Shown piece by piece: positions 1 through 14,053 of a DNA stretch of 64,000 nucleotides (within the stretch, counting starts at the first letter, position 1; the number at the start of each line of letters is the position of its first letter). Source of the stretch: Candidatus Heimdallarchaeota archaeon (GTDB taxonomy: Archaea > Asgardarchaeota > Heimdallarchaeia > Hodarchaeales > Hodarchaeaceae); contig RDOB01000004.1 in the NCBI GenBank assembly GCA_011364965.1, forward strand, positions 96,001-160,000, read 5' to 3'. A program made the translations under genes and the position numbers. A model generated the notes under the pieces. It made no database searches and was not told where the DNA came from. It saw nothing but the letters and a program-made list of their open reading frames with translations.

Positions 1-1
1 A

Positions 2-430
2 GATAACGCTTCACCGATTGGAAGATTGATCATTCCTGGCGTTGCAATGGGTATCGCATCCGCAGGATTTTATGCAAGGATAACACGTTCTAGTATGTTG
101 GAGGTAATCAGACAAGATTACATTATGACTGCTCGTTCAAAAGGACTTGCAGAAAAAATTGTTATCTATAAACACGCTCTGAAAAATGCCTTAATCCCTG
201 TTGTTACTATTATTGGTCTCGATCTTGCGGGTCTTTTTGGCGGAGCTGTGATTATGGAGACAATTTTCTCATGGCCTGGAATGGGACGATATGGATATCG
301 AGCTTTACAAATACGGAACTATCCTGTCATTATGGGAGTTGTACTGTTCAGTTCCACTCTCCTGATCATTATGAATCTGGTTGTAGATATAGCTTATGCT
401 TATCTTGATCCCAGAATCAGATATGGATAA
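2..430 (+). CDS. dppB: ABC peptide/nickel transporter permease DppB/OppB (5'-truncated by window)
   Basis: Frame is open from base 2; EAA-loop motif 'DYIMTARSKGLAEKIVIYKHALKNAL'; C-terminal 'YAYLDPRIR'. Confidence 0.93.
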   Translation, partial: DNASPIGRLIIPGVAMGIASAGFYARITRSSMLEVIRQDYIMTARSKGLAEKIVIYKHALKNALIPVVTIIGLDLAGLFGGAVIMETIFSWPGMGRYGYRALQIRNYPVIMGVVLFSSTLLIIMNLVVDIAYAYLDPRIRYG

Positions 431-438
431 TAAAGTAG

Positions 439-1410
439 GTGAATACCATGGGCATGAGTTTAATGTCACAGAGTGAACTTGTTGATCAAGTTAAGAGAGA
501 ACGAAGATTCCGAAATAGATTAATCGCGTATTTCAAGTCCCTATTAGGTAGCTGGACCGCGACCTTAGGACTTATTATTGTACTGGTATTCTTTGGAACT
601 GCCCTTTTTGCTGATTTTATTGCTCCTTATCATCCTACACAGGATGATTATACAGTTGGAATGCCATCTTTTCAACCACCTTTTACTATTCCTGAGCAAC
701 AACCTTTTCCCTTTGTTTTTGGAACAGATTGGTCTGGACAGGACATTTTTTCTAGAGTTATCCACGGAGCGCGTAGTGCAGTACTTGCGGGGACTATTGC
801 AATATCAGTTGGGCTTACAGGAGGAATACTCCTAGGTGCTATCTCAGGATACGTTGGTGGATCTATAGACAACATTCTAATGCGAGTGGTAGACGCATGG
901 ATGTCAATTCCTAGCTTTTTCATGCTGCTAATTATTGTAGCAGCTTTATCCGAGCAACCATGGAATCCAGCAGGTAAATATACTTTACTTATAGCAATGT
1001 TCTTTGTTGGTTTTATGGGGATTCCAGGATATGCAAGGATTATTCGCGGATCTGTTCTATCTGTTAGAGAAATGGATTTCATTGATGCTGCGAGAGCTAC
1101 TGGTTCAAGTGAAGCTCGAATTATAGCAAAGCATGTAATTCCTAATGTCTTCCCAATCATACTTGTTTATGCTACAATGGGAATTGGAGGAGCAATTATG
1201 AGTACAGCTGGTTTAAGCTTTATTGGGCTTGGAGCCCGTCCCAATCAACCAGACTGGGGTGGTGATATGAATGGAGCTAGATCTATCTTCTTCCAGTATT
1301 GGTGGCCTATGTTTTTCCCTGGTCTAGCAATATTTGTTGTGGTTCTTGGATTTAATCTCTTAGGAGATTGGCTTCGAGATGTTTTGGACCCAAGAACAAG
1401 GGATGTGTAA
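439..1410 (+). CDS. dppC: ABC peptide transporter permease DppC/OppC
   Basis: 'FGTDWSGQDIFSRVIHGAR', 'DFIDAARATG', 'NLLGDWLRDVLDPR'. True start may be one of the ATGs at 448-463. Confidence 0.93.
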   Translation: MNTMGMSLMSQSELVDQVKRERRFRNRLIAYFKSLLGSWTATLGLIIVLVFFGTALFADFIAPYHPTQDDYTVGMPSFQPPFTIPEQQPFPFVFGTDWSGQDIFSRVIHGARSAVLAGTIAISVGLTGGILLGAISGYVGGSIDNILMRVVDAWMSIPSFFMLLIIVAALSEQPWNPAGKYTLLIAMFFVGFMGIPGYARIIRGSVLSVREMDFIDAARATGSSEARIIAKHVIPNVFPIILVYATMGIGGAIMSTAGLSFIGLGARPNQPDWGGDMNGARSIFFQYWWPMFFPGLAIFVVVLGFNLLGDWLRDVLDPRTRDV

Positions 1411-1413
1411 TTA

Positions 1414-2388
1414 ATGGCATCAAATGGTACATTATTAGATATCCGCGACCTCCGTACATATTTCTATACCAAGAAAGGAGTAGTTCGTGCAGTGGATGGG
1501 ATCTCTTATAGCATCAAGCGAGGAGAAAGTCTTGGTCTCGTTGGTGAAAGTGGTTGTGGTAAAAGTGTTTCCGCGTTGACTCTTATGCGATTAATTCCTC
1601 AACCCCCAGGTAAAATTGTAAGCGGAGAAGTCTACTTCGATGGAATCAATTTATTGAAGTTACCTATGCATGAAATGAGAAAAATCCGTGGGAATAAGAT
1701 TTCAATGATTTTTCAAGATCCAATGACTTCACTAAATCCAGTTTTAACTGTAGGAGATCAGGTCGGTGAAACAATAGCACTTCATCAAGAATTAACAAAA
1801 AGAGAAGTTATTGAAAGAGTAATTGAGTATTTTGCGATGGTTGGTCTCCCAAATCCCGAAGATAGAGTAGAAAATTACCCCCATCAACTTTCAGGTGGAA
1901 TGCGTCAACGAGTGGGAATTGCAATGGCATTATCCTGTAATCCTAATCTCTTGATAGCAGATGAACCCACAACTGCACTGGATGTCACTATTCAAGCACA
2001 GATATTAGAAATTATGGCGAATTTAATGCAGGAAATTCAAACTTCTCTTATTTTGATCACACATAATCTTGGGCTTGTTGTTGAACTTAGTCAGAAAGTA
2101 GCAGTTATGTATGCAGGACATATCGCTGAATTTGGACGAGTGGACCATATTTTCGAAGCTCCAATGCATCCTTACACAATAGGTTTGCATGAATCTATCC
2201 CCAAGATTAATATAAAACGGGATAGGCTTATTCCAATACCAGGGGAAGTCCCAGATCTCATCAATCCTCCACCGGGCTGTCCTTTCCACCCAAGATGTTC
2301 TAAAGCCATGCCGGTCTGTCGGGAGAGTTATCCTGATACAGTGGAAATTGAACCTGGTCATAAGGTAGCGTGTCACCTTTATTTATAG
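1414..2388 (+). CDS. dppD: ABC peptide transporter ATP-binding subunit DppD/OppD
   Basis: Walker A GESGCGKS, signature LSGGMRQR, Walker B LIADEPTT, oligo_HPY C-terminus with Cys motif. Confidence 0.95.
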   Translation: MASNGTLLDIRDLRTYFYTKKGVVRAVDGISYSIKRGESLGLVGESGCGKSVSALTLMRLIPQPPGKIVSGEVYFDGINLLKLPMHEMRKIRGNKISMIFQDPMTSLNPVLTVGDQVGETIALHQELTKREVIERVIEYFAMVGLPNPEDRVENYPHQLSGGMRQRVGIAMALSCNPNLLIADEPTTALDVTIQAQILEIMANLMQEIQTSLILITHNLGLVVELSQKVAVMYAGHIAEFGRVDHIFEAPMHPYTIGLHESIPKINIKRDRLIPIPGEVPDLINPPPGCPFHPRCSKAMPVCRESYPDTVEIEPGHKVACHLYL

Positions 2389-2403
2389 CAAGGAGAAGAT
2401 TAT

Positions 2404-3393
2404 ATGTCAGAGAATATTATTGAAGTAAAAAATCTAAGGATGTACTTTGAAGTATCAAGAGGTCTCTTTTCTAGTGAAACACTTACATTAAGGGCAGTCG
2501 ATGATGTCAGTTTCAATATAAAAAAGGGCGACACACTTGGATTAGTCGGAGAAAGTGGATGCGGAAAAACCACTACCGCTAGATGCATTTTAAAGCTATA
2601 CGAATCAACTGGAGGCAGCATCAAATTCGAAGGATTAGAGGTTACAAAGCTTAAAGGGCGAAAACTTAGACAACTTCGACGAGATATGCAAATCATTTTT
2701 CAGGATCCTTATGCTTCATTAGATCCAAGAATGAAAGTTGGAGATATCATTGGAGAACCATTAATTGTTCATGGGGTTGCAAACGCTTCAGAAAGATCAG
2801 AAATTGTATTTAATTTGATTAAGACTGTTGGACTAGCTCCTGATCATTATTATCGATATCCCCACGAGTTTTCTGGGGGACAGCGACAACGAATTGGAGT
2901 AGCACGTGCTTTAGCGTTAAATCCAAAGTTCATCGTAGCAGATGAACCAGTTTCTGCATTGGATGTTTCGATTCAGGCTCAAATTCTTAATTTATTACAG
3001 GATTTACAAAATGAACTGAATTTAACGTATTTGGTTGTCGCGCACGACTTAGGAGTCGTTAGACATATAACGAGAGAAACAGCAGTGATGTATGTTGGTA
3101 AACTTGTAGAACAATCCCCAACCGAAGATTTATTCCATAATCCATCACATCCATATACTGAAGCTCTTATTTCAGCAGTACCAAGCTTGGATCTTCAACG
3201 GAAAATGAATCGGCTTGTTCTTCGAGGAGATGTTCCTTCTCCGATCTTCCCACCACCAGGATGTCGATTCTCTCCACGATGTATTTATGCAAAATCAATC
3301 TGTTCTCAAGAAGAACCAAATCTAGAGGAAATATCTCCGGGTCATTTTGTAGCATGTCACTTCCCTCTTGAAGAATCTGAGTATGCGTATTAA
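2404..3393 (+). CDS. dppF: ABC peptide transporter ATP-binding subunit DppF/OppF
   Basis: [30 protein letters not shown]...GCRF...CHF. Confidence 0.95.
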
Positions 3394-3396
3394 TAC

Positions 3397-3420
3397 CCTT
3401 TTTTCCTCTTTTTTCTCTTC
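3397..3420 (+). terminator. Archaeal pyrimidine/U-rich terminator after the dpp operon
   Basis: T/C tract CCCTTTTTTCCTCTTTTTTCTCTTC immediately after the dppF stop. Confidence 0.55.
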
Positions 3421-3488
3421 AAATCATCTATTGAAAATTTGTTGCACTAATCCTAAATTCATATATTGATGTTATTATCGGAGAGACC

Positions 3489-5492
3489 TTGATTTATATG
3501 AACACCATAATTAAACCTGTTACATTAATTTGCGTGTTTTTTTTCACTACTGGACTTCTTATCAAAACATCGCATGTTAATGCGTCATTTTATGATATCC
3601 CTGAAATCTCTTATGGAGATTCGACCATTTATTCTCATATTATTTTTACTGGCTTTAATCAGGAGATCTTAGCTAATATTGTTCCCATTTCTCCTTTCTC
3701 CCAATCTCTTCTTCCAGAATATGTTTCAAACTCTTTTAAACAATCTTTCACTAGCGAAACTTTCTTCATTAGACATTCATATGAAATTTCATCTTCCATT
3801 TTTGAGGGTTTACTCTTTGATCAACTTAATATCTCAGCTCAATTAAACACAGTCAATTTAACTGATGGAACCCAAGTAACTGGAAAATTTATTAATGCCA
3901 ACGATACCTTAAACTGGATAGGGGAAAGATACGAAACTTTCTTTGGTTCAATACCAAAACCAGGGTATAGTTTGATTATTGCTAACTATTCCAATCTTGA
4001 TGATATCACACACCCAAATCATTGGTATAATCAATCTTGGAAGGATCCAGATACAGAAAAACCATTAGAAAGTCAGTTTATGACTGGGTTTGGATCACAA
4101 GACCGAATTTATTATATAGATTTATCCACTGATTCATATATTCTTCAGGATTCGGGAGAGAACGGAACTCTTCAAGAATTGGAATATTTATACAATTTTA
4201 ACACTGAATTTGGGCTAAATAAGCTTGCAGAATATTTAGCTGAATGGATCTATGAAATAGAACGAAATCTCTTCATCCAAGAGTTCCAATATCAACCACT
4301 GATTCCAATGGGAGACCTTTGGAGTGGCACTCAATTCTTGTTTGAAACCCTAGTACTCTGTAATATATCTGATTATAGTGCTAGTGACCTCAATTGGACA
4401 ATCAATGAGGATTATCTTCTTGAGAAAATGAAAGATGTTTATCCGTGGATGAAAATGGAATTCAAGGTCAGATTTGTAAATTTGACTGATGTACCTGTCC
4501 TTGATGAATTAATATATAACTCTATGGTATCGTGGGATACCTATAATGATCAATCGTCTCATAAATACGGCATTGATGTGAGTTTGATATATAGGGAATT
4601 ATATACGAGGTCCGATTTTTATATGGAGGAAGAAATTAGTTCCTCATTTTATACTATTCATTTCAAAACATTTGCTTTTCTGTTTGATAATGCGTTATTT
4701 GGTACCCCCCATAAAGCTAAACTAGAACCTATTAGTAGAGGGCTTGCTTTAAGAGATGCTGCGAATCGTCCATTGAATATCATTGGTAAAAGTTTTCAGG
4801 AGATATTTGGCGAGAATCGTTCGAATCCTTCTCCAAATATAGGATTAAGTCGGGCTATTTTACAAGAATTCGGACACCAACTTGGATTGATCCACACCTT
4901 TCAATCTGGAGCTGTGGGGAATTTTGTAGATGATGTGATGGCATACTATCCCTATTCAACTAGATTTAGTATTTTTTCCATTGATAATGCTAGAAGAGGT
5001 CAAATAGACTTTCTTGTAAGGACAGGGGTTTTAAGATATCAAATAGCAGCGCAAAATGTTGAGAAAAAAGTGTATGATGAGAATTTATTAAATTACTTCT
5101 ATTTTCTTGCAGATTCCTATGAAGAAATCCTTACTTATTACAATCAAATGAATTATAGTAGAGCTTTTTCGTTAGCTAAAACTTTTTATTTAACTCTTCT
5201 AGACTTTGATCCTCAATTAAGAGGATATGCTGACTCTAGAGATAGGACAGAAATGACACCAGTTTTTTTCAGCTTAATGCTTGTCTTCCTGATAATTGCA
5301 GTTTATTATCGAGGAAAATTTCAAGTTTTTAGGAAGATGCACCCAAGGAGGGATCTTCTTACACCTGATATGGTTACTAAATTTGAAGAAAAAGCTCGGG
5401 AGAGGTTTATAGCTTCCCGACAAGCTGCTAAAGAAAAATTCTTAGAGACTCAACAACGGATCCAAGAAGAAAAAAACAATGAAATAGAATAA
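3489..5492 (+). CDS. Secreted, C-terminally membrane-anchored metzincin-like protein (variant Zn motif)
   Basis: N-terminal signal peptide; QEFGHQLGLIH matches HExxHxxGxxH except the first His; Met-turn-like 'DVMAY'; C-terminal TM helix and charged tail. Confidence 0.65.
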   Translation: MIYMNTIIKPVTLICVFFFTTGLLIKTSHVNASFYDIPEISYGDSTIYSHIIFTGFNQEILANIVPISPFSQSLLPEYVSNSFKQSFTSETFFIRHSYEISSSIFEGLLFDQLNISAQLNTVNLTDGTQVTGKFINANDTLNWIGERYETFFGSIPKPGYSLIIANYSNLDDITHPNHWYNQSWKDPDTEKPLESQFMTGFGSQDRIYYIDLSTDSYILQDSGENGTLQELEYLYNFNTEFGLNKLAEYLAEWIYEIERNLFIQEFQYQPLIPMGDLWSGTQFLFETLVLCNISDYSASDLNWTINEDYLLEKMKDVYPWMKMEFKVRFVNLTDVPVLDELIYNSMVSWDTYNDQSSHKYGIDVSLIYRELYTRSDFYMEEEISSSFYTIHFKTFAFLFDNALFGTPHKAKLEPISRGLALRDAANRPLNIIGKSFQEIFGENRSNPSPNIGLSRAILQEFGHQLGLIHTFQSGAVGNFVDDVMAYYPYSTRFSIFSIDNARRGQIDFLVRTGVLRYQIAAQNVEKKVYDENLLNYFYFLADSYEEILTYYNQMNYSRAFSLAKTFYLTLLDFDPQLRGYADSRDRTEMTPVFFSLMLVFLIIAVYYRGKFQVFRKMHPRRDLLTPDMVTKFEEKARERFIASRQAAKEKFLETQQRIQEEKNNEIE

Positions 5493-5709
5493 AACTAAAT
5501 TTTCATGCTGGATTTATTGTGAAACATTGACTCTTATACCCAAAGTGTCAACAAGATCTAAAAATTAGATTTTTTAAGAATCCAAGTCAGATGAATCAGT
5601 TGCATATATCATGAAGGATATAAAGGAATTTACAATATATCTAAAAGAAGAATCCTCGAATTCAAACCGGGAGGATTTTTTAAGGAAATAATTTCTTATA
5701 TGATCGAAG

Positions 5710-6459
5710 ATGCCCCGTTTAAATATTTCAGATCGTGACTTGATAATAGCAGCAGTAATCACTATAATCTATCTTCTTACAGGTTTCACCCCGAACCCTT
5801 TAGAATGGCCTAATCAAATTGAGAATCGTTTTACATTAATGGAATCCATACAACCAGAAAATCCCGATATTATTGAGTTAAATGCCAAATTTGAGGCTTT
5901 CTATCAATCAGAATACCAAAAACTTGGCACCAAGGACATGCGAGAGGAGCAAATTGAAGCAGAGGCATTAGAGGAATTCCTCTATGCAGAAATTCCGTAT
6001 ATTAATGACTTTGAAAACTATTTTGCTTGGGAGCATTTCCCTGAGATTTCAGAAGTGATTACCCGAGGAGATGATTGCGATGGTATGGCAATCGTTGCAT
6101 GTTCGATACTCACCAGAAGGGGATATGAAAGTTATGTTTTGAATTCCAAATGGCACTCCTGGATAGAAATCTACCTTGATGATGGGGTTGTATTATCAAT
6201 TTTAACTGATCCTGAAAGCATGACGACACCTTGGTATTTAAAATATAACGCAAATAGCATTAATTTTCGATTAATTTCTTATCTTGATGTGGTTTTTCAT
6301 AATTTTATCTTATTGCTCTTTTTAGAACAGATTTTTGTTACTTTTTATCTTTTAATAAAAAGATATGATTCTTTTCAACAAATTTACACAACTTTACTAG
6401 CATTACTTTTATCCCCTCTCCCAGTATTACTGATGTTTGCTAGCTTATTAGGTTATTAA
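5710..6459 (+). CDS. Membrane-anchored transglutaminase-like cysteine protease domain protein
   Basis: 'GDDCDGMAIVACSIL' catalytic Cys motif and 'HSWIEI' His motif; N-terminal and C-terminal hydrophobic helices. Confidence 0.7.
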   Translation: MPRLNISDRDLIIAAVITIIYLLTGFTPNPLEWPNQIENRFTLMESIQPENPDIIELNAKFEAFYQSEYQKLGTKDMREEQIEAEALEEFLYAEIPYINDFENYFAWEHFPEISEVITRGDDCDGMAIVACSILTRRGYESYVLNSKWHSWIEIYLDDGVVLSILTDPESMTTPWYLKYNANSINFRLISYLDVVFHNFILLLFLEQIFVTFYLLIKRYDSFQQIYTTLLALLLSPLPVLLMFASLLGY

Positions 6460-6497: not shown

Positions 6498-6947
6498 CTA
6501 CATACCAGAGGTAGTTAATGTCTGATAAAAAAGCCATAAAATCCAAACAACTACCATCGAAGCTAGTACAACAATTCCGCTGTACAGAAATTTTAAATCT
6601 CTTTCAATAAAGAAGGAATTAGATGATGGGGGATTTTTAGCTACATTTTTAGATTCTACTTTCCTATATTCTTTATATTTTGGGGTAAAACCAGTCTTTT
6701 TTTCCTTAGTAACAGTAGCTGGTTTTCGGATAAATGGAGGAATAAGACCAAAAGCAATTAGAATAGTTCCAATGAAGAAAAGAAAATTACTCATGGCTGT
6801 GGATACTAATTGTAAATAAGGAATATTGCTCAGTGTAAGATCAACCGTTAATATTAAGCTGATTACAGAGAAAAAGAAGCTTAAGATAATTGCAGCAGTA
6901 CTCCATCTGATTATGTCAGGTATTAATGGTTCGAAATGTTTAATCAT
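6498..6947 (-). CDS. Hypothetical 3-TM membrane protein
   Basis: Three hydrophobic segments with a Lys-rich loop; last gene of a tightly packed minus-strand operon (6 nt gap). Confidence 0.7.
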   Translation of the reverse strand: MIKHFEPLIPDIIRWSTAAIILSFFFSVISLILTVDLTLSNIPYLQLVSTAMSNFLFFIGTILIAFGLIPPFIRKPATVTKEKKTGFTPKYKEYRKVESKNVAKNPPSSNSFFIERDLKFLYSGIVVLASMVVVWILWLFYQTLTTSGM

Positions 6948-6953
6948 TAATTA

Positions 6954-7829
6954 TCACTTAATAGTCTGTTCTCTTATAGGATATTCAATACTAATAGGGA
7001 ACTCCCCTAAGAGCTTCAAGCTCTCTGAAGATGTTAAAAATCTTCTTTTTGTAAGAATTTGATAAATTCTTATTGTATATTCCACCCGTGAGAGAAGTCC
7101 TTTATAATTGTGTTGATAATCGGATGGAATTTGAAATTTAATTGGAATATCGGATAAATTTTGACTAAATTCAATTTGACCTAGGGGGAGTTCTGTTAGA
7201 TCGCTCTCTATGATCACATTTGAAGCTTTTACAACTTCTCTTCGAGCTAGTACAAATCGAACGGGACTAATTTCCATTAAATTATATGTGGATATTGAAA
7301 TCAAGTTCTCAGATCCAATTAACAACGGTTCAAGTGTTTTCAAAGAGAGACCTCCATGATCATACTCAAGTTCCACGATTTTGTCTGATCTTTTATAGGA
7401 TGAATCTATTAAAATTCTTTGCGATTCCTGGTACCGCTTCCCACTTTCTAGCATTATATCGAGCAGAACTCTATATTCTACTTTGCAATTTGCTCCATAA
7501 TACGAAGGAATGGCGTTTTCAGGTACCTCAAGTTTAATTCTGGTTTCTAAAAGGAATTGAGATTTTTCAATGACTTGAGTTTGTGTTAAGAACTCAGTTT
7601 CTTCCTTTAGATGTTTACTTGGCAATAAAAAACTCCATGTTGGATGAAATCCTTTCTTTCCTAATAATGATTGAATTGTGAATTCGACTTTTTCCACTCC
7701 AATAAGTGAAGCTGAAGCTTCAATTACTGCTTCTTTCTCTTGAGGAAAAGAAATCGCCAGATCAATGAAGTCTCCCTGAGAGAATACCTGTTTTAGAAGT
7801 TTTATCATATTTAAATCCAAGCTTTTCAA
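6954..7829 (-). CDS. Arrestin-fold protein (arrestin_N/arrestin_C; Vps26/SpoOM-like)
   Basis: 'KQVFSQGD...LIGVEKV' and two repeats of the arrestin-type motif ('LEVPENAIPSYYGANCKVEYRV', 'FQIPSDYQHNYKGLLSRVEYTI'); TTG start overlaps the upstream TGA. Confidence 0.7.
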   Translation of the reverse strand: MKSLDLNMIKLLKQVFSQGDFIDLAISFPQEKEAVIEASASLIGVEKVEFTIQSLLGKKGFHPTWSFLLPSKHLKEETEFLTQTQVIEKSQFLLETRIKLEVPENAIPSYYGANCKVEYRVLLDIMLESGKRYQESQRILIDSSYKRSDKIVELEYDHGGLSLKTLEPLLIGSENLISISTYNLMEISPVRFVLARREVVKASNVIIESDLTELPLGQIEFSQNLSDIPIKFQIPSDYQHNYKGLLSRVEYTIRIYQILTKRRFLTSSESLKLLGEFPISIEYPIREQTIK

Positions 7830-10753
7830 GTAATTTCAGATAATATGTCAGCTCGCGCGATTCTTAGTGTTTCTAGATTTAATTCAGGATGATATCTACT
7901 CAAAAAGTACAAATATCCTCCTGTTATCTCTTGCATCACCAAAAGCAAAAGGTATGACCACAAATGAATGAAATGTCTTCCCCTATAGACCCCTGAATCA
8001 GAAATGAGATTTTTAAGTAGATCAGTGTACGTTTCTGCTTTGCTCATAGGAATAGAACGAAGTAAAGAAGCTCCTCGCGTATTTGTGCTGAAGATAGTGA
8101 GAGAGATTTTTTCCTTCTTTATCTGATGTGCTAGGGATATACAATCTTCAATAGCGAGTTTTACTGCAAGATCAATACCTAAATTCCGCAATGATTTCTC
8201 TCGAGAAAGATTTGTAGTTGGATCTACAAGTAAGGGTATATTAGTAGCTCCGTCTGTGATGAGTATTATCATAGGTATCGTTTCATGTTTACTACGAATT
8301 CTATCAAGTTTAATTAACTCTAACGCCTTCTGTAAACCTCCAGGCAGTGGGGTTGAACCTGATGCACGAAGATCCATAAGTTTGCGTTTTACTAAGTTCA
8401 AATTGGACGTGGGTGGCTGAATTATTACCCCTTGTGTTCCTTGTAAGACTACAACACCAACACGATCACGATAAAGATAAGCTTGTCTACTTAACCAAGT
8501 CACAGAATCAGAGACTGATTTGATGGTATTAACTATTGATTCAGATAAATCTAAAACGAAAATTATCGTAGCTGATACTCTCGTACAGTAGACGTTTTCT
8601 CGGATATCGTCTTTTTCTATTGAAAATGGAACTCCTTTTTGCAATAATCCTTCCCTATAGTTTCTTAAAATTGCGTTTTTAATCGTGGCGAGGATATGCA
8701 TATTTTTAGGTATTATTTTAAAATCTTGATGGCCAATTACTCGTCCCGAATCGAGACCAGTTATACTTAAAGCGCGTTTACCTATTTTGCTTCGAATTTT
8801 TGAATCAGGTTTGGATTTGATGCTAGGTGAAGAGTCAAAGACAACTTTAACTGGTTTTGTTTCCTTTGATGTTTGTGCAATAGATGCAATCAATGGAATA
8901 CCATCTTTTTCCTCTGAACTTTGACTTTTTACCAAATTTAAATCCTTTAACTTATCCATTAAATTCAATCCATACTCTTCAGTCCGATTTGGAATTTGAG
9001 GGGCAGAATCCTTGGGTGATATATGAGATCCAATTCCACCGCTTTCTAATGGTATACTAGTTTCAGAGGGTGACGCACCAATATCTGCAACTCGTTTAAT
9101 CTGCCATTGCTTTTTCATTAAAGCAGATATAACTCCAATCGTAACCAAACACAAAAAGAAGAAGATTAAACCCAACCAGAATTCAGGAGGTAGTATTAAT
9201 ATTAAGTAGGTATATAGTATTATACTTACTAGGAGTATAATAATTCCATATATAGACAACCAAAACCGCTGGCGCTCTGTAGGAGAAATCATTCCCCTTC
9301 TTTGCCTTAATCCGAAGAATCGGAGAATTCCTCCTTTTTTACTACGGTTTTCTTCAATATCAAGAATAATTTCAGTTTTGGGTTTTGTTTTAGCTTCTTT
9401 TGTTTTCTCAGTTAATTTTAAACTTTTTACGCGGGAAAAAGAGGTTATATTAGGTTTTTTCATGTTCTTGGTCAGGATTCCATGTTCTTCCATAATTTTT
9501 TGTCGTCTTTTAAACCATAAAAAGAGAAGGAAGGAGGAAAATCCCCATAAAACAATGATACTAAAAAATTTTAATAGCATTTCTGGAACAGAGAATATAG
9601 TTACCAGTATAATAGCAATTAAATATGCTCCAACAGTGATTCCTAATATAGAGGCAAACCATTCAATTATCCTCCTCTTTTGCAAATGAGATTCATCACT
9701 ATATGGAAGCTTTCTAGAGAGATTGATTTCGGAAGAAGCTGTAGAATCAGTTTGGCTAGATGGCATTTCCGATTTAATTAACTGCTGGAGAATTTGAATT
9801 TTTTCGTTAGATACTCTATGATTTAAAACGAAGGGAGCAAGTAATATAATATCCTCTTTAATAACTTTGGATCTCCCATCGAGGCTAGCGAGAGCTCGTG
9901 CACCACGAGCCAGTGCTATATCAGCTCTTTGGCCTTGAAGACCTGCGCGAAGACAGAGAGAAGCGATAAAGTTAAGACATTCCTTTGAAATTATAACATT
10001 TTGTAGGAGTATTCGGGAGTTAGTAATAATTTTGTTGAATTTTGATTCTTCTAAGGAAAAATGCAAACCATTGGGAGAAATGTTACGCTCAAGTATATCT
10101 ATCCTTTGATTAATGGTATTATCATATTGTATTCTATATGAAAACGCAAATTTATCAAGGATAGAACTTGAGATATCTGAAAATCCTGTATTTATACTGG
10201 AAATTAAACAAAAATTACTCGGGTGTTGAAAGGAGAGCATATCTCTTTGAATTATATTTGTATGATTCTTCCATATTTCCAAAATGATGTTTAAGATGTT
10301 TGGGGGTAATAAATGTAGATCATCGATCAACAGATATCCGTTGTTAACCCTACCTAGAATTCCAGGACGAAAAGTTAATTTAATATCAAAACTTCCAATA
10401 ATAGCCTCTATTGAAGCATGGGGAGGTAAAAAAATTAGGGGCGAAAACCCCCATACTTTCGTTCTTATTCCTGCTTCAACCCTTTTTAAACAGGAGGAAC
10501 AAAGGTTCTCCTGATCGAAAGAACAATTGTATGGACAGTTCTCGATTTTCTGGAGGGGAATTTTCATTTGAGAAAAACCTCTCAAGAATTGGGACTTACC
10601 AACACCAGTTTCACCTAAGATGACCAAACCATCGATTGAGGGATCGATAGCTAATAACAATAGAATTAACTTGAGATATTCATTGCCTTGAAGCTCAGAA
10701 AGACCTAAAAAATTATAGTATCTTGGTTTAGATTCATTCTGATCTTCAACCAT
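7826..10753 (-). CDS. ChlI/ChlD-like chelatase AAA+ module - 4 TM helices - vWA domain fusion
   Basis: Walker A GETGVGKS, CPYNC..CSSC motif, 'PGILGRVNNGYLLIDD', 'GQRAD'; vWA MIDAS DLSES, TPL, ITDG. Start reassigned to the ATG at 10753 (MVEDQ), 14 nt after the upstream stop. Confidence 0.8.
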   Translation of the reverse strand: MVEDQNESKPRYYNFLGLSELQGNEYLKLILLLLAIDPSIDGLVILGETGVGKSQFLRGFSQMKIPLQKIENCPYNCSFDQENLCSSCLKRVEAGIRTKVWGFSPLIFLPPHASIEAIIGSFDIKLTFRPGILGRVNNGYLLIDDLHLLPPNILNIILEIWKNHTNIIQRDMLSFQHPSNFCLISSINTGFSDISSSILDKFAFSYRIQYDNTINQRIDILERNISPNGLHFSLEESKFNKIITNSRILLQNVIISKECLNFIASLCLRAGLQGQRADIALARGARALASLDGRSKVIKEDIILLAPFVLNHRVSNEKIQILQQLIKSEMPSSQTDSTASSEINLSRKLPYSDESHLQKRRIIEWFASILGITVGAYLIAIILVTIFSVPEMLLKFFSIIVLWGFSSFLLFLWFKRRQKIMEEHGILTKNMKKPNITSFSRVKSLKLTEKTKEAKTKPKTEIILDIEENRSKKGGILRFFGLRQRRGMISPTERQRFWLSIYGIIILLVSIILYTYLILILPPEFWLGLIFFFLCLVTIGVISALMKKQWQIKRVADIGASPSETSIPLESGGIGSHISPKDSAPQIPNRTEEYGLNLMDKLKDLNLVKSQSSEEKDGIPLIASIAQTSKETKPVKVVFDSSPSIKSKPDSKIRSKIGKRALSITGLDSGRVIGHQDFKIIPKNMHILATIKNAILRNYREGLLQKGVPFSIEKDDIRENVYCTRVSATIIFVLDLSESIVNTIKSVSDSVTWLSRQAYLYRDRVGVVVLQGTQGVIIQPPTSNLNLVKRKLMDLRASGSTPLPGGLQKALELIKLDRIRSKHETIPMIILITDGATNIPLLVDPTTNLSREKSLRNLGIDLAVKLAIEDCISLAHQIKKEKISLTIFSTNTRGASLLRSIPMSKAETYTDLLKNLISDSGVYRGRHFIHLWSYLLLLVMQEITGGYLYFLSRYHPELNLETLRIARADILSEIT

Positions 10754-10767
10754 AAAATAAAGGGCTC

Positions 10768-11238
10768 CTAAATAGAAGTTCCTTCCGTTAATGGATTCTC
10801 TCCTTTTCTGATAAAGAAAAATAATAAGGTTAAGAGAAAGCAATTTGCAGAAGCCAACGTAAAGATTTCTTCCACGAAAGCTATTAATAACAATACACCA
10901 ACGAACCAAAGAACAGAAATGACAGCTGCACGACGAATAACCCACTTTAATAATATTCTTTCTTCTTCATTCAATCCTTCATCGATTGCAAGCATAATTA
11001 CAACATAACCAAAATTATATACAAAAACCATCATTCCAACAAACAAAATTAGTAAAAGCACAGTTTGCATTAAGATGAGGATAGGAGAACTTGTCTGAGC
11101 ATACCCTGAATATGTAAGTAATGCAACTGATCCGAATATAATTCCAAAGAGGAGAGAAAAAAAGACACCCTTGTGATCTGAGATCCAACCACTAATACCT
11201 TGAGGTGATTTCTTTTGTTGCTGCCACTGCACTTTCAA
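10768..11238 (-). CDS. Hypothetical 4-TM membrane protein
   Basis: Four hydrophobic helices; TTG start preceded by GGAG; first gene of the AAA/vWA-arrestin operon. Confidence 0.7.
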   Translation of the reverse strand: MKVQWQQQKKSPQGISGWISDHKGVFFSLLFGIIFGSVALLTYSGYAQTSSPILILMQTVLLLILFVGMMVFVYNFGYVVIMLAIDEGLNEEERILLKWVIRRAAVISVLWFVGVLLLIAFVEEIFTLASANCFLLTLLFFFIRKGENPLTEGTSI

Positions 11239-11308: not shown

Positions 11309-13195
11309 CTAAAAAAACTTCATGGAGACATGCGTAAGTGGAGAATGAAGTTTGATTCCCGTACGCTCTTCAACCAAAGCAATTAGCTCCTTATATAACT
11401 CTAAATAATCCACCTCTGAGTTATTTGTTAATCCAGGGATGTTAATCTTATTAGCCTTGGCAATCTCTATAGCTTCTTCATATCCAGCTGCAGCATGACG
11501 TAAAACTGCAGACATAGGATCCCACGTGAGAACACGGAAAAGTCGCTCCTGAGAAAGTTGAGTCCCATCAGCTACACATACTTGCCCAGCATGCAAGGAA
11601 TATCCAACACCAACCCCTCCTCCCCCGTGATAACTCGTCCAAGTTGCTCCACATAAGGAATTCCCAAGGAGATTTAAAACAGCATAATCACCAATTGCAT
11701 CTGATCCATCTTTCATTCCTTCAGTTTCGCGATAAGGACTAGCAACAGATCCACCATCAAGATGATCCCTTCCAATAATGACGGGAGCTTGGATTAATCC
11801 GTCAAAATACAACTTATTTAGAAGCATTCCAAAAGCTGCCCTTCCTTTGTAACCTGCCCAGAACACACGAGCGGGAAGTCCATTTTCAAAGGGAATGAAT
11901 CGGGAAGCCAGATCTAACCAATTTAAAAGCATAGGATCGTCTTTGAACAACATCTTTGCATACTCATCCGTCACATAAATATCTGCAGGATTATTAGATA
12001 AAGCTGCCCATCTGAAAGGCCCCTTTCCTTGACAAAATAGGGGTCTGATGTAATTGGGGACAAAGCCTGAAAAATTGAACGCGTTTTTTGCTCCTGCTGA
12101 ATGAGCTTGAGCTCGAATATTATTCCCATAATCAAATGTTTCCGCGCCTCGCTCTTGTAACTTCAACATGGCTTCTACATGTTTTTTCACTGTTTCATAA
12201 GCCAATTGTTTATATTTAGTGGGATCACTTTTTCTAAGAGATTCTGCTTGAGAATAGGTCATACTAGCAGGTACATATCCATTTAACATATCATGAGCGG
12301 AAGTTTGATCAGTTAAAACGTGGGGAGTAATGTTATTTTCAAGTAAATATTCTAAGAGATCAACTGCATTACATAAAACGCCAATAGAAGTTGCTTCTCC
12401 TCTTTCAACATATTCTTTTGCAAGAAACACACCTTCCTGTATATCATTCACTTTATTATCTAAATAAGGAGTCCCTTTACTCCTACCCTCATTGAACATA
12501 CGATCCAAATTTGAGGGATCTATCTCGGCGATTAATCCGATTTTCCCAGCCATTTTGATAGCTAACGCTTGAGCACCTCCCATTAATCCTAAACCTGCGG
12601 TAACTGCCAGATTTTGTTCAAAATGGGAGAGTTTGGGATAATTAGAGTTATTTTCTGCAGATTTAATCGCGGCAACAAAAGTTTCGTATGTACCCTGTAT
12701 GATTCCCTGAAGACCAATAAATATCCAACTACCTGCAGTCATTTGTCCATAAACAGTCAAACCAGCATTAACCATTTCCTGAAATGACTGGGTCCAATTG
12801 GGTACGATTACTGAATTGGTAATAACACAACGTGGGGCAAAGGGATGCGTAATCATCTTACCATAAGGAACTCCTGATTGCATGAATAGCGTTTCATTAG
12901 GTTTCAGGGTTTTTAGATATTCAATAGTGTCAAAAAAAGCTTTCCAATTCCTCAGGGCTTTCCCACTGCCTCCATAAATGAAAAACTTTTCCCAATCCTT
13001 CCCATTATGGAGATTCGATATTAAAGCACGAATAATACCTTCGGTTTGCCATCCTGCTTCAGTCTTTGGCACGAGAGCGTCGTTTCCTCGGGGAAGTGGA
13101 GGAATTGTATCTGGTTTTATATCCAATCTTAGACGAGTTGATTCGTCTAGCTGGTACTTTCCCTCAATAATCTCCTGCAGACGTGACTTTTTCAT
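11309..13195 (-). CDS. hutU: Urocanate hydratase
   Basis: 'YGQMTAGSWIFIG', 'TDQTSAHD', 'FDYGNNIR', 'GRDHLD', 'HGGGGVGVG'. Confidence 0.96.
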   Translation of the reverse strand: MKKSRLQEIIEGKYQLDESTRLRLDIKPDTIPPLPRGNDALVPKTEAGWQTEGIIRALISNLHNGKDWEKFFIYGGSGKALRNWKAFFDTIEYLKTLKPNETLFMQSGVPYGKMITHPFAPRCVITNSVIVPNWTQSFQEMVNAGLTVYGQMTAGSWIFIGLQGIIQGTYETFVAAIKSAENNSNYPKLSHFEQNLAVTAGLGLMGGAQALAIKMAGKIGLIAEIDPSNLDRMFNEGRSKGTPYLDNKVNDIQEGVFLAKEYVERGEATSIGVLCNAVDLLEYLLENNITPHVLTDQTSAHDMLNGYVPASMTYSQAESLRKSDPTKYKQLAYETVKKHVEAMLKLQERGAETFDYGNNIRAQAHSAGAKNAFNFSGFVPNYIRPLFCQGKGPFRWAALSNNPADIYVTDEYAKMLFKDDPMLLNWLDLASRFIPFENGLPARVFWAGYKGRAAFGMLLNKLYFDGLIQAPVIIGRDHLDGGSVASPYRETEGMKDGSDAIGDYAVLNLLGNSLCGATWTSYHGGGGVGVGYSLHAGQVCVADGTQLSQERLFRVLTWDPMSAVLRHAAAGYEEAIEIAKANKINIPGLTNNSEVDYLELYKELIALVEERTGIKLHSPLTHVSMKFF

Positions 13196-13348: not shown

Positions 13349-14053
13349 TTATGACTTTTGGAGCTGAGAAATGATAATATCTCGGATTACCATCTGGATA
13401 GGTTGAATAATCCGCTGAACTGCCTGTGGACGCTGTTTTGGATTCCATTCACCACGAGTCCACGCATCTTTCAAAGCACTGAGGGCTTCTAGGCAACTCA
13501 CCTCAAATGTACTGGCAAACGTGTCTCGTAACTTGTCAGAAATGCCTGCTTCAATCATAAGACGTCCAACATCAGCAGCAGAGATCCGGGTTTCAGCAGG
13601 TAAATCCATTTTATTTAACATAATTGCCATTTTTACCTCTCTACTATACAATTTATCACCTAATATAGTAAATAATTCTATTAAACTCTCTCTATTCTCC
13701 TCCCAGCGAGCTTTCTCGGAATCAATGACAACAATTAAGCCATGCAGTCCATTAATGACAATTTTTCGCATTGATTTAAACCGATCTTGTCCTGGGGTGG
13801 TGAAAAGATGGTACTTAAATGCCTTTCCAGCACCAGTGCCAAGACCAAAGGTAGCTTGGTCAAATCCGATTGTACGTTCTGTTGCTTTGTCTTCAAGTTT
13901 TAAAAAATTGTAAACACTCTCAGGGTCTTCTTTCTTCTTAATTGCGTGAAATAAGCTTAGGGCAGTGGTCTTCCCAGCCAAAGTTGGGCCCCAAAAAACA
14001 ATTTTTACCCCTTGTTGAGACTCTTCAAAAACCAGCTCTTCTTCTTGGCTCAA
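13349..14053 (-). CDS. Small Ras-superfamily GTPase, MglA-like
   Basis: G1 GPTLAGKTT, G2 ERTIGFD, MglA-type G3 TTPGQ, G4 NKMD. Confidence 0.85.
   Translation of the reverse strand: MSQEEELVFEESQQGVKIVFWGPTLAGKTTALSLFHAIKKKEDPESVYNFLKLEDKATERTIGFDQATFGLGTGAGKAFKYHLFTTPGQDRFKSMRKIVINGLHGLIVVIDSEKARWEENRESLIELFTILGDKLYSREVKMAIMLNKMDLPAETRISAADVGRLMIEAGISDKLRDTFASTFEVSCLEALSALKDAWTRGEWNPKQRPQAVQRIIQPIQMVIRDIIISQLQKS

What the first reader, a model, noticed from the sequence alone, without database searches (positions are those of the whole stretch)
6498..11238. Operon coupling a membrane-inserted ChlD-like AAA+/vWA protein to an arrestin-fold adaptor: candidate membrane-protein remodelling or sorting system
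Seen: four tightly packed minus-strand genes (14-nt gap, TTGA overlap, 6-nt gap): 4-TM protein, AAA+-TM-vWA, two-domain arrestin-fold protein, 3-TM protein. Known: ChlD/BchD-type AAA+-vWA proteins are soluble and act with ChlI and ChlH/CobN. Arrestin-fold proteins (alpha-arrestins, Vps26) are adaptors for membrane cargo in eukaryotes. No tetrapyrrole or chelatase partner genes are in the window. Inference: a membrane-tethered AAA+/vWA machine working with an arrestin adaptor on membrane substrates. I know of no description of this arrangement.
Basis: partly seen in the sequence, partly recalled or inferred. Interest (0 to 1): 0.8.

Follow-up and report, generated by a model that had tools for sequence, protein, structure and literature searches.

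The report
Membrane ChlD-like motor beside archaeal arrestin
In one family of Asgard archaea (Hodarchaeaceae), a chelatase-type ATPase/vWA protein with four membrane helices sits in a tight gene cluster with an arrestin-fold protein and two small membrane proteins. Its real ATPase partner is encoded outside the reported stretch, the two halves of the cluster can each exist alone, and the function is still only inferred.

Summary
There are four co-directional minus-strand genes: a 4-TM protein (g1), a ChlD-like AAA+/TM/vWA protein (g2), an arrestin-fold protein (g3) and a 3-TM protein (g4). The arrestin fold is solid: 303 Foldseek PDB hits at E<=1e-3, led by Vps26, arrestins and TXNIP, and Pfam Arrestin_N in 10 of 13 family members.

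- g2's AAA+ module is degenerate in nearly all orthologs: Walker B reads DD in all 14, and LDKF replaces LDRF in 13 of 14. An intact ChlI-like ATPase co-occurs with g2 in 7 of 7 genomes. It lies at the far end of the same island, about 4 kb before the window start, and converges directly on g4 in two compact five-gene loci.
- The cluster is two separable modules. Four loci keep only g2 plus the ChlI-like gene. One keeps only g1-g3-g4.
- The whole block is a dispensable insert between hutU and hutH and has been lost in sister genomes.

No CobN/ChlH occurs in 24 Hodarchaeales genomes, so g2 is not a classical chelatase subunit. Binding of the arrestin to the motor is not shown.

The scan noted the same cluster before on two other genomes (e1-3233162, e1-1365415). 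Verdict: a new variant of a known kind, of moderate interest.

The parts
10768..11238 (-). g1: 156-aa protein with four TM segments. It has an invariant cytoplasmic loop (V/I-DEGLNxEE...W..RR, residues 85-103) and an invariant C-terminal tail (R-x-GENPLTEG).
   Evidence: ORF; hydropathy; alignment of 14 orthologs; no Pfam or NCBIfam family; found only in Hodarchaeales; present in 6 of 24 genomes of the order, always next to g2 or g3.
7826..10753 (-). g2: 975-aa ChlD-like protein, made of a ChlI-type AAA+ module, two TM hairpins and a MIDAS vWA domain.
   Evidence: Pfam AAA_lid_2, Mg_chelatase, VWA_2; TIGR02442 3e-95 and TIGR02031 1e-71, both below their cut-offs; BchI 1g8p 6e-40 and BchD vWA 2x31 2e-11; 14-ortholog alignment; AF2 model, mean pLDDT 64.
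9764..10696 (-). g2 AAA+ module (residues about 20-330). Walker A GxxGxGKS is intact. Walker B reads DD, not DE. The arginine-finger motif reads LDKF, not LDRF.
   Evidence: Alignments to BchI/ChlI and to the standalone ChlI-like paralogs. DD is in all 14 orthologs and LDKF in 13 of 14.
9083..9691 (-). g2 membrane insert (residues 355-557): two TM hairpins around a conserved basic cytoplasmic loop with the motifs SFSxVK and (E/D)IILDIEED. It replaces the soluble Pro/acidic linker of ChlD.
   Evidence: Hydropathy and K/R counts; AF2 helices 355-387, 390-423, 493-520 and 523-557 at pLDDT about 75-80; conservation.
7829..8575 (-). g2 vWA domain with an intact MIDAS (DLSES...T...D). It is the most conserved part of the protein: 73% mean pairwise identity, against 46% for the AAA+ module.
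6954..7829 (-). g3: arrestin-fold protein with two beta-sandwich lobes. Its likely true start is the ATG at 7808.
   Evidence: AF2 pLDDT 76.8, all-beta, two lobes. Foldseek PDB gives 303 hits at E<=1e-3; the 50 listed are Vps26/VPS26C, arrestins, TXNIP and ARRD-6. VIA Z is 12.7 for Vps26 and 11.9 for arrestin-2. Pfam Arrestin_N matches 10 of 13 family members, Arrestin_C 7 of 13 and Rgp1 8 of 13. Atlas neighbours are prokaryotic arrestin clusters.
6498..6947 (-). g4: 149-aa protein with three TM segments and a 47-residue basic cytoplasmic loop carrying an invariant FxPKY motif.
   Evidence: present in the same 6 of 24 genomes as g1 and g3; no family found.
11309..13195 (-). hutU (urocanase), the fixed left flank of the island. 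In genomes that lack the island, hutU abuts hutH directly.
1..6459 (+). Cargo found only in the long form of the island: Opp/Dpp-type ABC transporter genes (to 3393), a 667-aa protein (3489-5492) and a 249-aa protein (5710-6459). These converge on g4 and are absent from the compact five-gene loci. The ChlI-like partner gene lies beyond this block, about 4,060-5,082 nt before window position 1 (G000:C12:90919-91941, + strand; L018:8919-9941).

Best explanation
The four genes are the larger part of a five-gene system. That system is built from two separable modules that are interleaved on the chromosome.

Module A is a ChlI/ChlD-type AAA+/vWA motor. Shown: g2 is the D-type subunit. Its Walker A is intact, but its Walker B glutamate and arginine finger are replaced. 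It has a MIDAS vWA domain, and its soluble linker is replaced by two transmembrane hairpins. An even TM count and a very basic inter-hairpin loop place both the AAA+ and vWA domains in the cytoplasm. Shown by co-occurrence, inferred as a partnership: the catalytically intact ChlI-like ATPase is encoded separately, at the other end of the island and outside the finding's coordinates.

Module B is the arrestin-fold protein g3 plus the small polytopic proteins g1 and g4. Both small proteins carry invariant cytoplasmic motifs.

Inferred mechanism, by analogy with ChlI/ChlD, CobS/CobT and NorQ/NorD: a ChlI-like ring docks on membrane-anchored g2. The MIDAS face of the vWA domain grips an acidic motif on a client at the membrane. 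ATP hydrolysis in the ChlI-like ring then remodels that client. Where module B is present, it is the most likely client or adaptor, with the arrestin bridging cytoplasmic loops or tails of g1, g4 or g2. Module B is not obligatory for the motor.

The system is not a tetrapyrrole chelatase. It is an accessory trait carried in a dispensable island between hutU and hutH.
For: - Domains and topology.
- Degenerate AAA+ in g2: every one of 14 orthologs has DD in Walker B and 13 of 14 have LDKF, while the standalone ChlI-like paralogs keep DE and LDR.
- The ChlI-like ortholog (65-69% identity) is found in exactly the 7 of 24 Hodarchaeales genomes that have g2. It lies 12-14 kb away on the same contig in 5 of them (G000, G048, G049, G053, G063), adjacent in a sixth (G050) and on another contig in the seventh (G052).
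- In two divergent compact loci (L053, L059; their g2 proteins are 43% identical), the order is hutU-g1-g2-g3-g4, then the ChlI-like gene converging, then hutH, with nothing else between.
- In four loci only g2 and the ChlI-like gene remain, adjacent to each other.
- The order g1-g2-g3-g4 with gaps of 20 nt or less holds in 11 of 15 g2 loci.
- g1, g3 and g4 share one phyletic pattern, 6 of 24 genomes. They are lost together in the lineage that kept only g2 and the ChlI-like gene, even though g1 lies on the other side of the retained g2.
- The vWA domain is the most conserved part of g2 and its MIDAS is intact.
- g1 has an invariant cytoplasmic DEGL..EE loop and GENPLTEG tail.
- No CobN/ChlH above cut-off in 24 genomes, with the positive controls detected.
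- The published NorQ/NorD mechanism is a precedent for an AAA+/vWA pair that uses its MIDAS on a membrane protein (PMC9976466).
Against: - No direct evidence that any of these proteins bind each other.
- L005 carries g1-g3-g4 without g2, and four loci carry g2 plus the ChlI-like gene without g1, g3 or g4. So the arrestin and the motor can each persist alone.
- All loci come from one archaeal family and share wider synteny. Conserved order is therefore partly inheritance, and the loci are not independent.
- Whole-island losses in sisters of island-bearing genomes (G051, G059) show that the system is dispensable.
- Asp in Walker B and Lys at the finger position may still allow some hydrolysis. 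'Impaired' is inferred from ChlD/BchD and from general knowledge of AAA+ proteins.
- Expression and co-transcription could not be checked.
Confidence: 0.5

Rival explanations
1. There are two unrelated modules that are merely neighbours. A ChlI/ChlD-like membrane motor acts on some other, unlinked client. An arrestin plus two-membrane-protein module has its own function. They were juxtaposed by insertion into a recombination-prone hutU-hutH junction and stay together only by inheritance.
For: Each module exists without the other: L005 has g1-g3-g4 only, and L017, L056, L057 and L058 have only g2 and the ChlI-like gene. The junction is a variable hotspot: in G061 it holds an unrelated APH-M23-aminotransferase gene, and most loci have an Opp block inserted. 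All loci belong to one family with extended synteny.
Against: g2 sits between g1 and g3 with gaps of 14-20 nt, in the same order, in 11 loci whose proteins have diverged to 38-65% identity. An unrelated gene wedged inside an operon would not be expected to keep such tight spacing. The compact five-gene loci in two divergent lineages contain nothing but these genes.
Confidence: 0.3
2. A metal-handling role. The I/D pair acts as a chelatase-like or metal-insertion chaperone at the membrane, working with the adjacent Opp/Nik-family ABC importer in the long form of the island. The small membrane proteins and the arrestin would be accessory.
For: The closest families of g2 and the ChlI-like protein are cobalto- and magnesium-chelatase subunits. 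The substrate-binding protein's best, far sub-threshold, NCBIfam match is NikA (67 bits against a cut-off of 393). The genome's second I/D pair also lies next to an ABC permease gene. NorQ/NorD shows that AAA+/vWA pairs can drive metal insertion into a membrane enzyme.
Against: No CobN/ChlH in any of 24 genomes. The ABC block is absent from the compact loci and from the loci with only g2 and the ChlI-like gene, so it is not part of the core. The ABC ATPase passes the dipeptide-transporter subfamily cut-off, not a nickel one. No metalloenzyme client is evident in the island.
Confidence: 0.1
3. A conflict or defence system of the NTPase-vWA-effector type, carried on a variable island, with the membrane proteins as effectors.
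For: Patchy distribution, repeated loss, and a location in a variable junction. MoxR-vWA ternary conflict systems are described in the literature (PMC7159879, listed).
Against: None of the four cluster genes matches PADLOC; only the ChlI-like ATPase gives weak generic AAA matches. There are no nuclease, protease, pore or other effector domains. Inheritance looks vertical with reductive loss rather than mobile, there are no integrase or transposase genes, and the flanking genes are housekeeping hut genes.
Confidence: 0.05

Closest known systems
ChlI/ChlD (BchI/BchD) motor of class I Mg-chelatase, and the single-chain ChlI-ChlD 'putative cobaltochelatase' (TIGR02442)
   Same: g2 has the same domain order: a ChlI-type AAA+ module, a linker, a pre-vWA region and a MIDAS vWA domain. 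Its AAA+ module is catalytically degenerate, as in a D subunit, and a separate intact ChlI-type ATPase always accompanies it.
   Different: The Pro/acidic linker is replaced by two TM hairpins and a conserved basic loop. Scores lie far below the family cut-offs (242 against 499.55 bits for TIGR02031). No ChlH/CobN exists in the order. The operon partners are an arrestin-fold protein and small membrane proteins.
MoxR-class AAA+/vWA chaperone pairs such as NorQ/NorD (also CbbQ/CbbO, RavA/ViaA, CoxD/CoxE)
   Same: The logic is the same: an AAA+ ring plus a vWA adaptor whose MIDAS binds an acidic patch on a client. In the NorQ/NorD case the client is an integral membrane enzyme, and no chelatase H subunit is involved (PMC9976466).
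   Different: The ATPase here belongs to the ChlI family, not the MoxR family. The vWA subunit carries its own degenerate AAA+ module and is itself membrane-embedded. The client is unknown.
Arrestin-fold proteins: Vps26/VPS26C, alpha-arrestins (TXNIP, ARRDC3, ARRD-6), visual and beta-arrestins, Rgp1, bacterial Spo0M
   Same: g3 has a two-lobe beta-sandwich fold of about 290 residues. Family members match Pfam Arrestin_N, Arrestin_C and Rgp1. The gene is next to polytopic membrane proteins with conserved cytoplasmic motifs, which fits an adaptor role.
   Different: No PPxY motif was seen when reading the sequence. There is no Pfam Vps26 match. The lobe orientation in the model differs from solved structures (TM 0.3-0.4, rmsd 8-16 A over both lobes). 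The family is restricted to Hodarchaeales: 8 clusters at 50% identity among 1.8 billion proteins. No retromer, ubiquitin-ligase or GPCR partner is in the neighbourhood.
Arrestin and Vps26 homologues already reported as Asgard eukaryotic signature proteins
   Same: Arrestin N/C-domain genes and retromer-subunit homologues, including Vps26, are already reported in Asgard genomes with a sparse distribution (10.1101/2021.04.02.438162; PMC10307638; 10.1101/2025.11.06.686947).
   Different: Those reports, as far as I could search them, give no link to an AAA+/vWA motor or to these membrane proteins.

Membership tests
Arrestin-fold superfamily (Pfam Arrestin_N / Arrestin_C / Vps26 / Rgp1 / Spo0M group) | Two consecutive beta-sandwich lobes with arrestin topology | tested here: met
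   The AF2 model (pLDDT 76.8) has two all-beta lobes. Foldseek PDB gives 303 hits at E<=1e-3, and the 50 listed are Vps26, arrestins, TXNIP and ARRD-6. VIA Z is 12.7 (Vps26; rmsd 11.1 A over 238 residues) and 11.6 for the ARRDC3 N-lobe alone (rmsd 3.9 A over 132 residues).
Arrestin-fold superfamily (Pfam Arrestin_N / Arrestin_C / Vps26 / Rgp1 / Spo0M group) | Significant sequence match to the family profiles | tested here: inconclusive
   The window protein matches only Rgp1, at E=9e-4 and below the cut-off, and a genome-wide scan with Arrestin_N and Arrestin_C finds nothing. Its orthologs do match: Arrestin_N in 10 of 13 (best 2.9e-8), Arrestin_C in 7 of 13 (best 2.9e-9) and Rgp1 in 8 of 13.
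Alpha-arrestins (ART/ARRDC) | PPxY or related motifs that recruit Nedd4/Rsp5-type ubiquitin ligases | tested here: not met
   No PPxY was seen when reading the 291-aa translation. This is a direct reading of the sequence, and no motif search was run.
Vps26 (retromer subunit) | Match to Pfam Vps26 (PF03643) and presence of Vps35/Vps29 partners | tested here: inconclusive
   No PF03643 hit at E<=0.1 for any of the 13 members. Vps26 structures are among the best fold matches. Vps35 and Vps29 homologues were not searched for.
ChlD/BchD, D subunit of class I chelatase | N-terminal ChlI-like AAA+ module with degenerate catalytic motifs | tested here: met
   The module aligns to BchI over residues 18-318 (6e-40). 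Walker B DD is in all 14 orthologs and LDKF in 13 of 14, against DE and LDR in the ChlI-like paralogs.
ChlD/BchD, D subunit of class I chelatase | C-terminal vWA (integrin I) domain with MIDAS | tested here: met
   VWA_2 7.5e-9; BchD vWA 2x31 2e-11; DxSxS...T...D is invariant.
ChlD/BchD, D subunit of class I chelatase | Soluble Pro-rich/acidic linker; a soluble protein | tested here: not met
   The linker is replaced by four TM helices in two hairpins.
ChlD/BchD, D subunit of class I chelatase | Score above the curated family cut-off | tested here: not met
   TIGR02031 scores 242.3 bits against a cut-off of 499.55. TIGR02442 scores 320 against 779.45.
ChlD/BchD, D subunit of class I chelatase | A catalytic ChlH/BchH/CobN subunit in the same genome | tested here: not met
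   PF02514 gives no match above its cut-off in G000 or in any of 24 Hodarchaeales genomes. The control genomes that have CobN were detected. G000 is 87% complete.
ChlD/BchD, D subunit of class I chelatase | A partner ChlI-type ATPase | tested here: met
   An intact ChlI-like gene (TIGR02030 364 bits, below the 467 cut-off) co-occurs with g2 in 7 of 7 genomes and is linked to it on the same contig in six of them. Physical interaction was not tested.
MoxR-vWA chaperone systems (NorQ/NorD type) | ATPase of the MoxR family (AAA_3/AAA_5, bpMoxR) | tested here: not met
   The best matches for g2 and for the partner are ChlI/BchI families. AAA_5 and bpMoxR matches are only secondary or weak.
Known anti-phage defence systems (PADLOC-DB 2.0) | Match of any component to a defence-system model | tested here: inconclusive
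   g1-g4 and the neighbouring p249, p667 and DUF5518 proteins have no hit. The ChlI-like protein gives only weak generic AAA matches. The library dates from 2023.

The most novel reading that the evidence does not exclude
The arrestin-fold protein is a true cargo adaptor. It binds cytoplasmic motifs of specific membrane proteins (g1, g4) and hands them to a membrane-anchored, ATP-driven ChlI/ChlD-type motor for extraction, sorting or assembly. That would be an archaeal, energy-coupled forerunner of arrestin/Vps26-type membrane-cargo handling, in the closest known relatives of eukaryotes.
Probability: 0.2. Interest if true: 0.85.

Novelty: new variant of a known kind. Interest (0 to 1): 0.55.

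Why it matters
Arrestin and Vps26 homologues are listed among the eukaryotic signature proteins of Asgard archaea, but nothing is known about what they do there. This locus gives one of them a defined genomic context: two small membrane proteins with invariant cytoplasmic motifs, and a membrane-embedded AAA+/vWA motor with a separately encoded ATPase. That turns an open question into a five-protein reconstitution experiment. It also shows a chelatase-type I/D motor in an order that has no chelatase H subunit. This widens the known uses of that motor towards the MoxR/vWA-like remodelling of membrane clients. The separability of the two modules and the dispensability of the island limit how much can be claimed.

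Tried and rejected
- Complex prediction on g2 residues 355-975 with g3, using alignments A4 and A2: score 0.00, verdict 'no answer'. This is not evidence either way.
- Profile search of the g3 family against PDB sequences: no hit at E<=10. Only the fold comparison shows the relationship.
- Scan of genome contigs with the g3 alignment: only the same Hodarchaeota genomes were found. Searches of 5.8 billion and 1.8 billion proteins found no g3, g1 or TM-type g2 relatives outside Hodarchaeales. The g2 search scored only the 8000 candidates sharing most words.
- Atlas look-alikes for g4: only unnamed bacterial clusters. The weak MARVEL match of g4 (E=0.006, below cut-off) was not pursued.
- PADLOC: nothing informative.
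- The sigma-70 promoter and terminator scan gave counts no higher than shuffled sequence, and the model does not suit archaea.
- Literature searches for arrestin with vWA/AAA+ in prokaryotes, and for arrestin in Hodarchaeales, found no description of this arrangement. The library is incomplete, so this is not proof of novelty.
- I considered the Arf/MglA-like GTPase upstream of hutU as a partner of the arrestin, by analogy with Rgp1-Rab6. I rejected this because the GTPase-hutU pair is equally present in genomes without the island.
Full report
**1. What is there**

The window is contig C12:96001-160000 of a 2.97-Mb genome that is 87% complete. All close homologs are named Hodarchaeota, Hodarchaeales or Heimdallarchaeota B3.

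Four minus-strand ORFs lie at the reported coordinates:
- g1: 10768-11238, 156 aa.
- g2: 7826-10753, 975 aa, taking the ATG that leaves the 14-nt gap.
- g3: 6954-7829, 291 aa.
- g4: 6498-6947, 149 aa.

The stated junctions are correct. However, homologs of g3 begin at its Met8. The TTGA overlap is therefore more likely a 17-nt gap.

Hydropathy gives four TM segments in g1 and three in g4. g4 also has a 47-residue loop carrying 13 Lys/Arg. In g2 there are two TM hairpins, at 369-414 and 503-545, flanking an 88-residue loop with 24 Lys/Arg. With an even number of TM segments and the positive-inside rule, the AAA+ domain, the loop and the vWA domain are all cytoplasmic. A full-length AF2 model (mean pLDDT 64) shows the AAA+ fold, four long helices at 355-557 and the vWA fold, joined by disordered linkers.

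**2. The arrestin fold is real**

The AF2 model of g3, built from 13 sequences, has pLDDT 76.8 and two all-beta lobes. Foldseek against the PDB gives 303 matches at E<=1e-3. The 50 listed are Vps26/VPS26C, alpha-arrestins (TXNIP, ARRD-6) and visual or beta-arrestins. An aligner that does not depend on Foldseek puts Vps26 (Z 12.7), arrestin-2 (Z 11.9), the ARRDC3 N-lobe, Spo0M and Rgp1 at the top.

The window protein reaches only Rgp1 at E=9e-4. Its orthologs do better: Arrestin_N in 10 of 13, Arrestin_C in 7 of 13 and Rgp1 in 8 of 13.

Two-lobe superpositions have high rmsd (8-16 A). The inter-lobe angle of the model is therefore not to be trusted. The family is narrow, with 8 clusters at 50% identity among 1.8 billion proteins, all from this lineage. 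It is the only arrestin-like gene I could detect in this genome.

**3. g2 is a D-type subunit, and its ATPase partner lies outside the finding**

g2 aligns to BchI over residues 18-318 (6e-40) and to the BchD vWA domain (2e-11). Its best NCBIfam models are the fused 'putative cobaltochelatase' and BchD-ChlD, both far below their cut-offs.

- Walker A is intact.
- Walker B reads DD where ChlI has DE, in all 14 orthologs.
- The LDRF arginine-finger motif reads LDKF, in 13 of 14 orthologs.
- The genome's standalone ChlI-like proteins keep DE and LDR.
- The MIDAS (DLSES...T...D) is invariant.
- The vWA domain is the most conserved region: 73% mean pairwise identity, against 46% for the AAA+ module.

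The genome has two further ChlI-like genes. One is at C12:90919-91941, about 4 kb before the window start and next to hutH. Its orthologs, at 65-69% identity, occur in exactly the 7 of 24 Hodarchaeales genomes that have g2. In five of them (G000, G048, G049, G053, G063) the gene lies 12-14 kb from g2 on the same contig. In G050 it is adjacent to g2, and in G052 it is on another contig. I infer that this is the I subunit that powers g2.

**4. The locus is an island of two separable modules**

In genomes without the cluster, the Arf-like GTPase gene, hutU, hutH and hutI are contiguous. Between hutU and hutH I found five states.

| State | Content between hutU and hutH | Loci |
|---|---|---|
| Long | g1 g2 g3 g4, then p249 p667 opp-ABC DUF5518, then the ChlI-like gene | 9 (this window included) |
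| Compact | g1 g2 g3 g4, with the ChlI-like gene converging on g4 and nothing else | 2 (L053, L059; g2 proteins only 43% identical) |
| I/D only | g2 and the ChlI-like gene | 4, in one g2 lineage |
| g1-g3-g4 only | no g2 | 1, distant metagenomic contig L005 |
| Empty | none of these genes | several |

Among the empty loci, G051 retains a 21-residue remnant of the ChlI-like gene, and G061 carries an unrelated gene at the junction.

On a HutU gene tree, the long forms branch early. The compact, I/D-only and most empty forms fall in a derived clade (SH-aLRT 91). Two empty genomes, G051 and G059, are sisters of long-form genomes. This is a single-gene tree and some nodes are open. The picture it gives is an old island undergoing repeated reduction and loss.

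Three conclusions follow:
- The compact loci argue that the ChlI-like gene belongs with g1-g4 and that the opp block is cargo.
- g1, g3 and g4 share one presence/absence pattern. They disappear together in the I/D-only lineage even though g1 lies on the other side of the retained g2. This argues that they form one module.
- Neither module strictly needs the other.

**5. Not a chelatase, not a known defence system**

No CobN/ChlH above cut-off was found in G000 or in any of 24 genomes of the order, while the control genomes were detected. None of the four cluster genes matches PADLOC. The ABC transporter of the long form belongs to the Dpp/Opp/Nik family, and its substrate is undetermined.

**6. 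Mechanism**

Shown:
- The domain architecture and the topology.
- The degenerate AAA+ motifs of g2 and its intact MIDAS.
- Co-occurrence and linkage of g2 with an intact ChlI-like ATPase.
- Conserved tight order with g1, g3 and g4.
- Invariant cytoplasmic motifs in g1 (the DEGL..EE loop and the GENPLTEG tail), in g4 (FxPKY) and in the g2 loop.

Inferred from ChlI/ChlD, and from the published NorQ/NorD model in which the vWA MIDAS binds acidic residues on a membrane enzyme and the ring's ATP hydrolysis remodels it (PMC9976466):
- A ChlI-like ring docks on membrane-anchored g2.
- The vWA MIDAS grips an acidic motif of a client at the membrane.
- ATP hydrolysis remodels that client.

The arrestin with g1 and g4 is the best candidate for client or adaptor, but nothing here shows binding. 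My rough odds:
- Architecture and domain calls: about 0.9.
- I/D partnership of g2 with the ChlI-like protein: about 0.75.
- Functional coupling of the arrestin module to the motor: about 0.4.

**7. Comparison with what is known, and novelty**

Arrestin and Vps26 homologues in Asgard archaea are already reported. AAA+/vWA pairs that act on membrane clients are known. Three features appear undescribed in the literature I could search:
- A ChlD-type subunit with TM hairpins in place of its linker.
- Its use in an order that lacks any chelatase H subunit.
- Its interleaving with an arrestin-fold gene and two small membrane-protein genes.

The scan itself had noted the same four-gene cluster in two other Hodarchaeales genomes (e1-3233162, e1-1365415). 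Those notes reached a similar 'partly supported' verdict. The additions here are the ChlI-like partner, the compact five-gene form, the separability of the modules and the island's history of loss.

I rate it a new variant of a known kind, interest 0.55. The anatomy is real and unusual, and it offers a testable handle on an Asgard arrestin. Against that, the taxonomic range is narrow, the island is dispensable and no function has been demonstrated.

Noticed in passing
window 13349-14053 (- strand): A small GTPase lies upstream of hutU, with Pfam Arf/Ras hits. Its P-loop (GPTLAGKT) and NKMD motif are intact, but the G3 motif reads TPGQ where DxxGQ is usual; from memory this resembles the MglA family. 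It is 78-89% identical across loci where HutU is 67-79% identical, and it sits next to hutU whether or not the island is present.
   Followed up: partly
hutU-hutH junction: L023 4117-7152 (G061); L049 8329-8391 (G051): The junction is a hotspot for variable content. G061 carries an unrelated 1011-aa APH-M23-aminotransferase fusion gene there. G051 keeps only a 21-residue remnant of the ChlI-like gene, which points to a recent clean deletion of the whole 20-kb island.
   Followed up: partly
G000:C2, L019 2668-3861 and 3957-5024: A second, soluble ChlI-like plus vWA pair lies next to an ABC permease gene. It is split into 397-aa and 355-aa ORFs here but is an ORF of about 800 aa in G057, G062 and G064. 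This is another I/D system with no CobN in the genome, and its function is unknown.
   Followed up: partly
window 3489-5492 and 5710-6459 (+ strand): Two conserved membrane proteins have no Pfam, NCBIfam or PADLOC family. The 667-aa protein has an N-terminal hydrophobic segment, a large acidic middle region, a C-terminal TM segment and a basic tail. The 249-aa protein has an acidic middle region and C-terminal TM segments. They follow the opp genes and converge on g4, and are present only in the long form of the island.
   Followed up: no
L018 3125-8623 (G000:C12:85125-90623, before the window): The hut cluster next to the island holds HutH, an M20 peptidase, a GlnA-like gene and a HutI-like amidohydrolase. 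Genomes fall into two types: those with M20 and GlnA and a 73-80% identical HutI, and those without them and a roughly 40% identical HutI.
   Followed up: partly
L020 6057-7375 (G065): A roadblock/LC7 gene (Robl_LC7, 2e-7) lies next to a 239-aa coiled-coil protein with weak, sub-threshold SNARE-family matches, close to the hut genes. This matches an earlier first-reader note on this genome.
   Followed up: no
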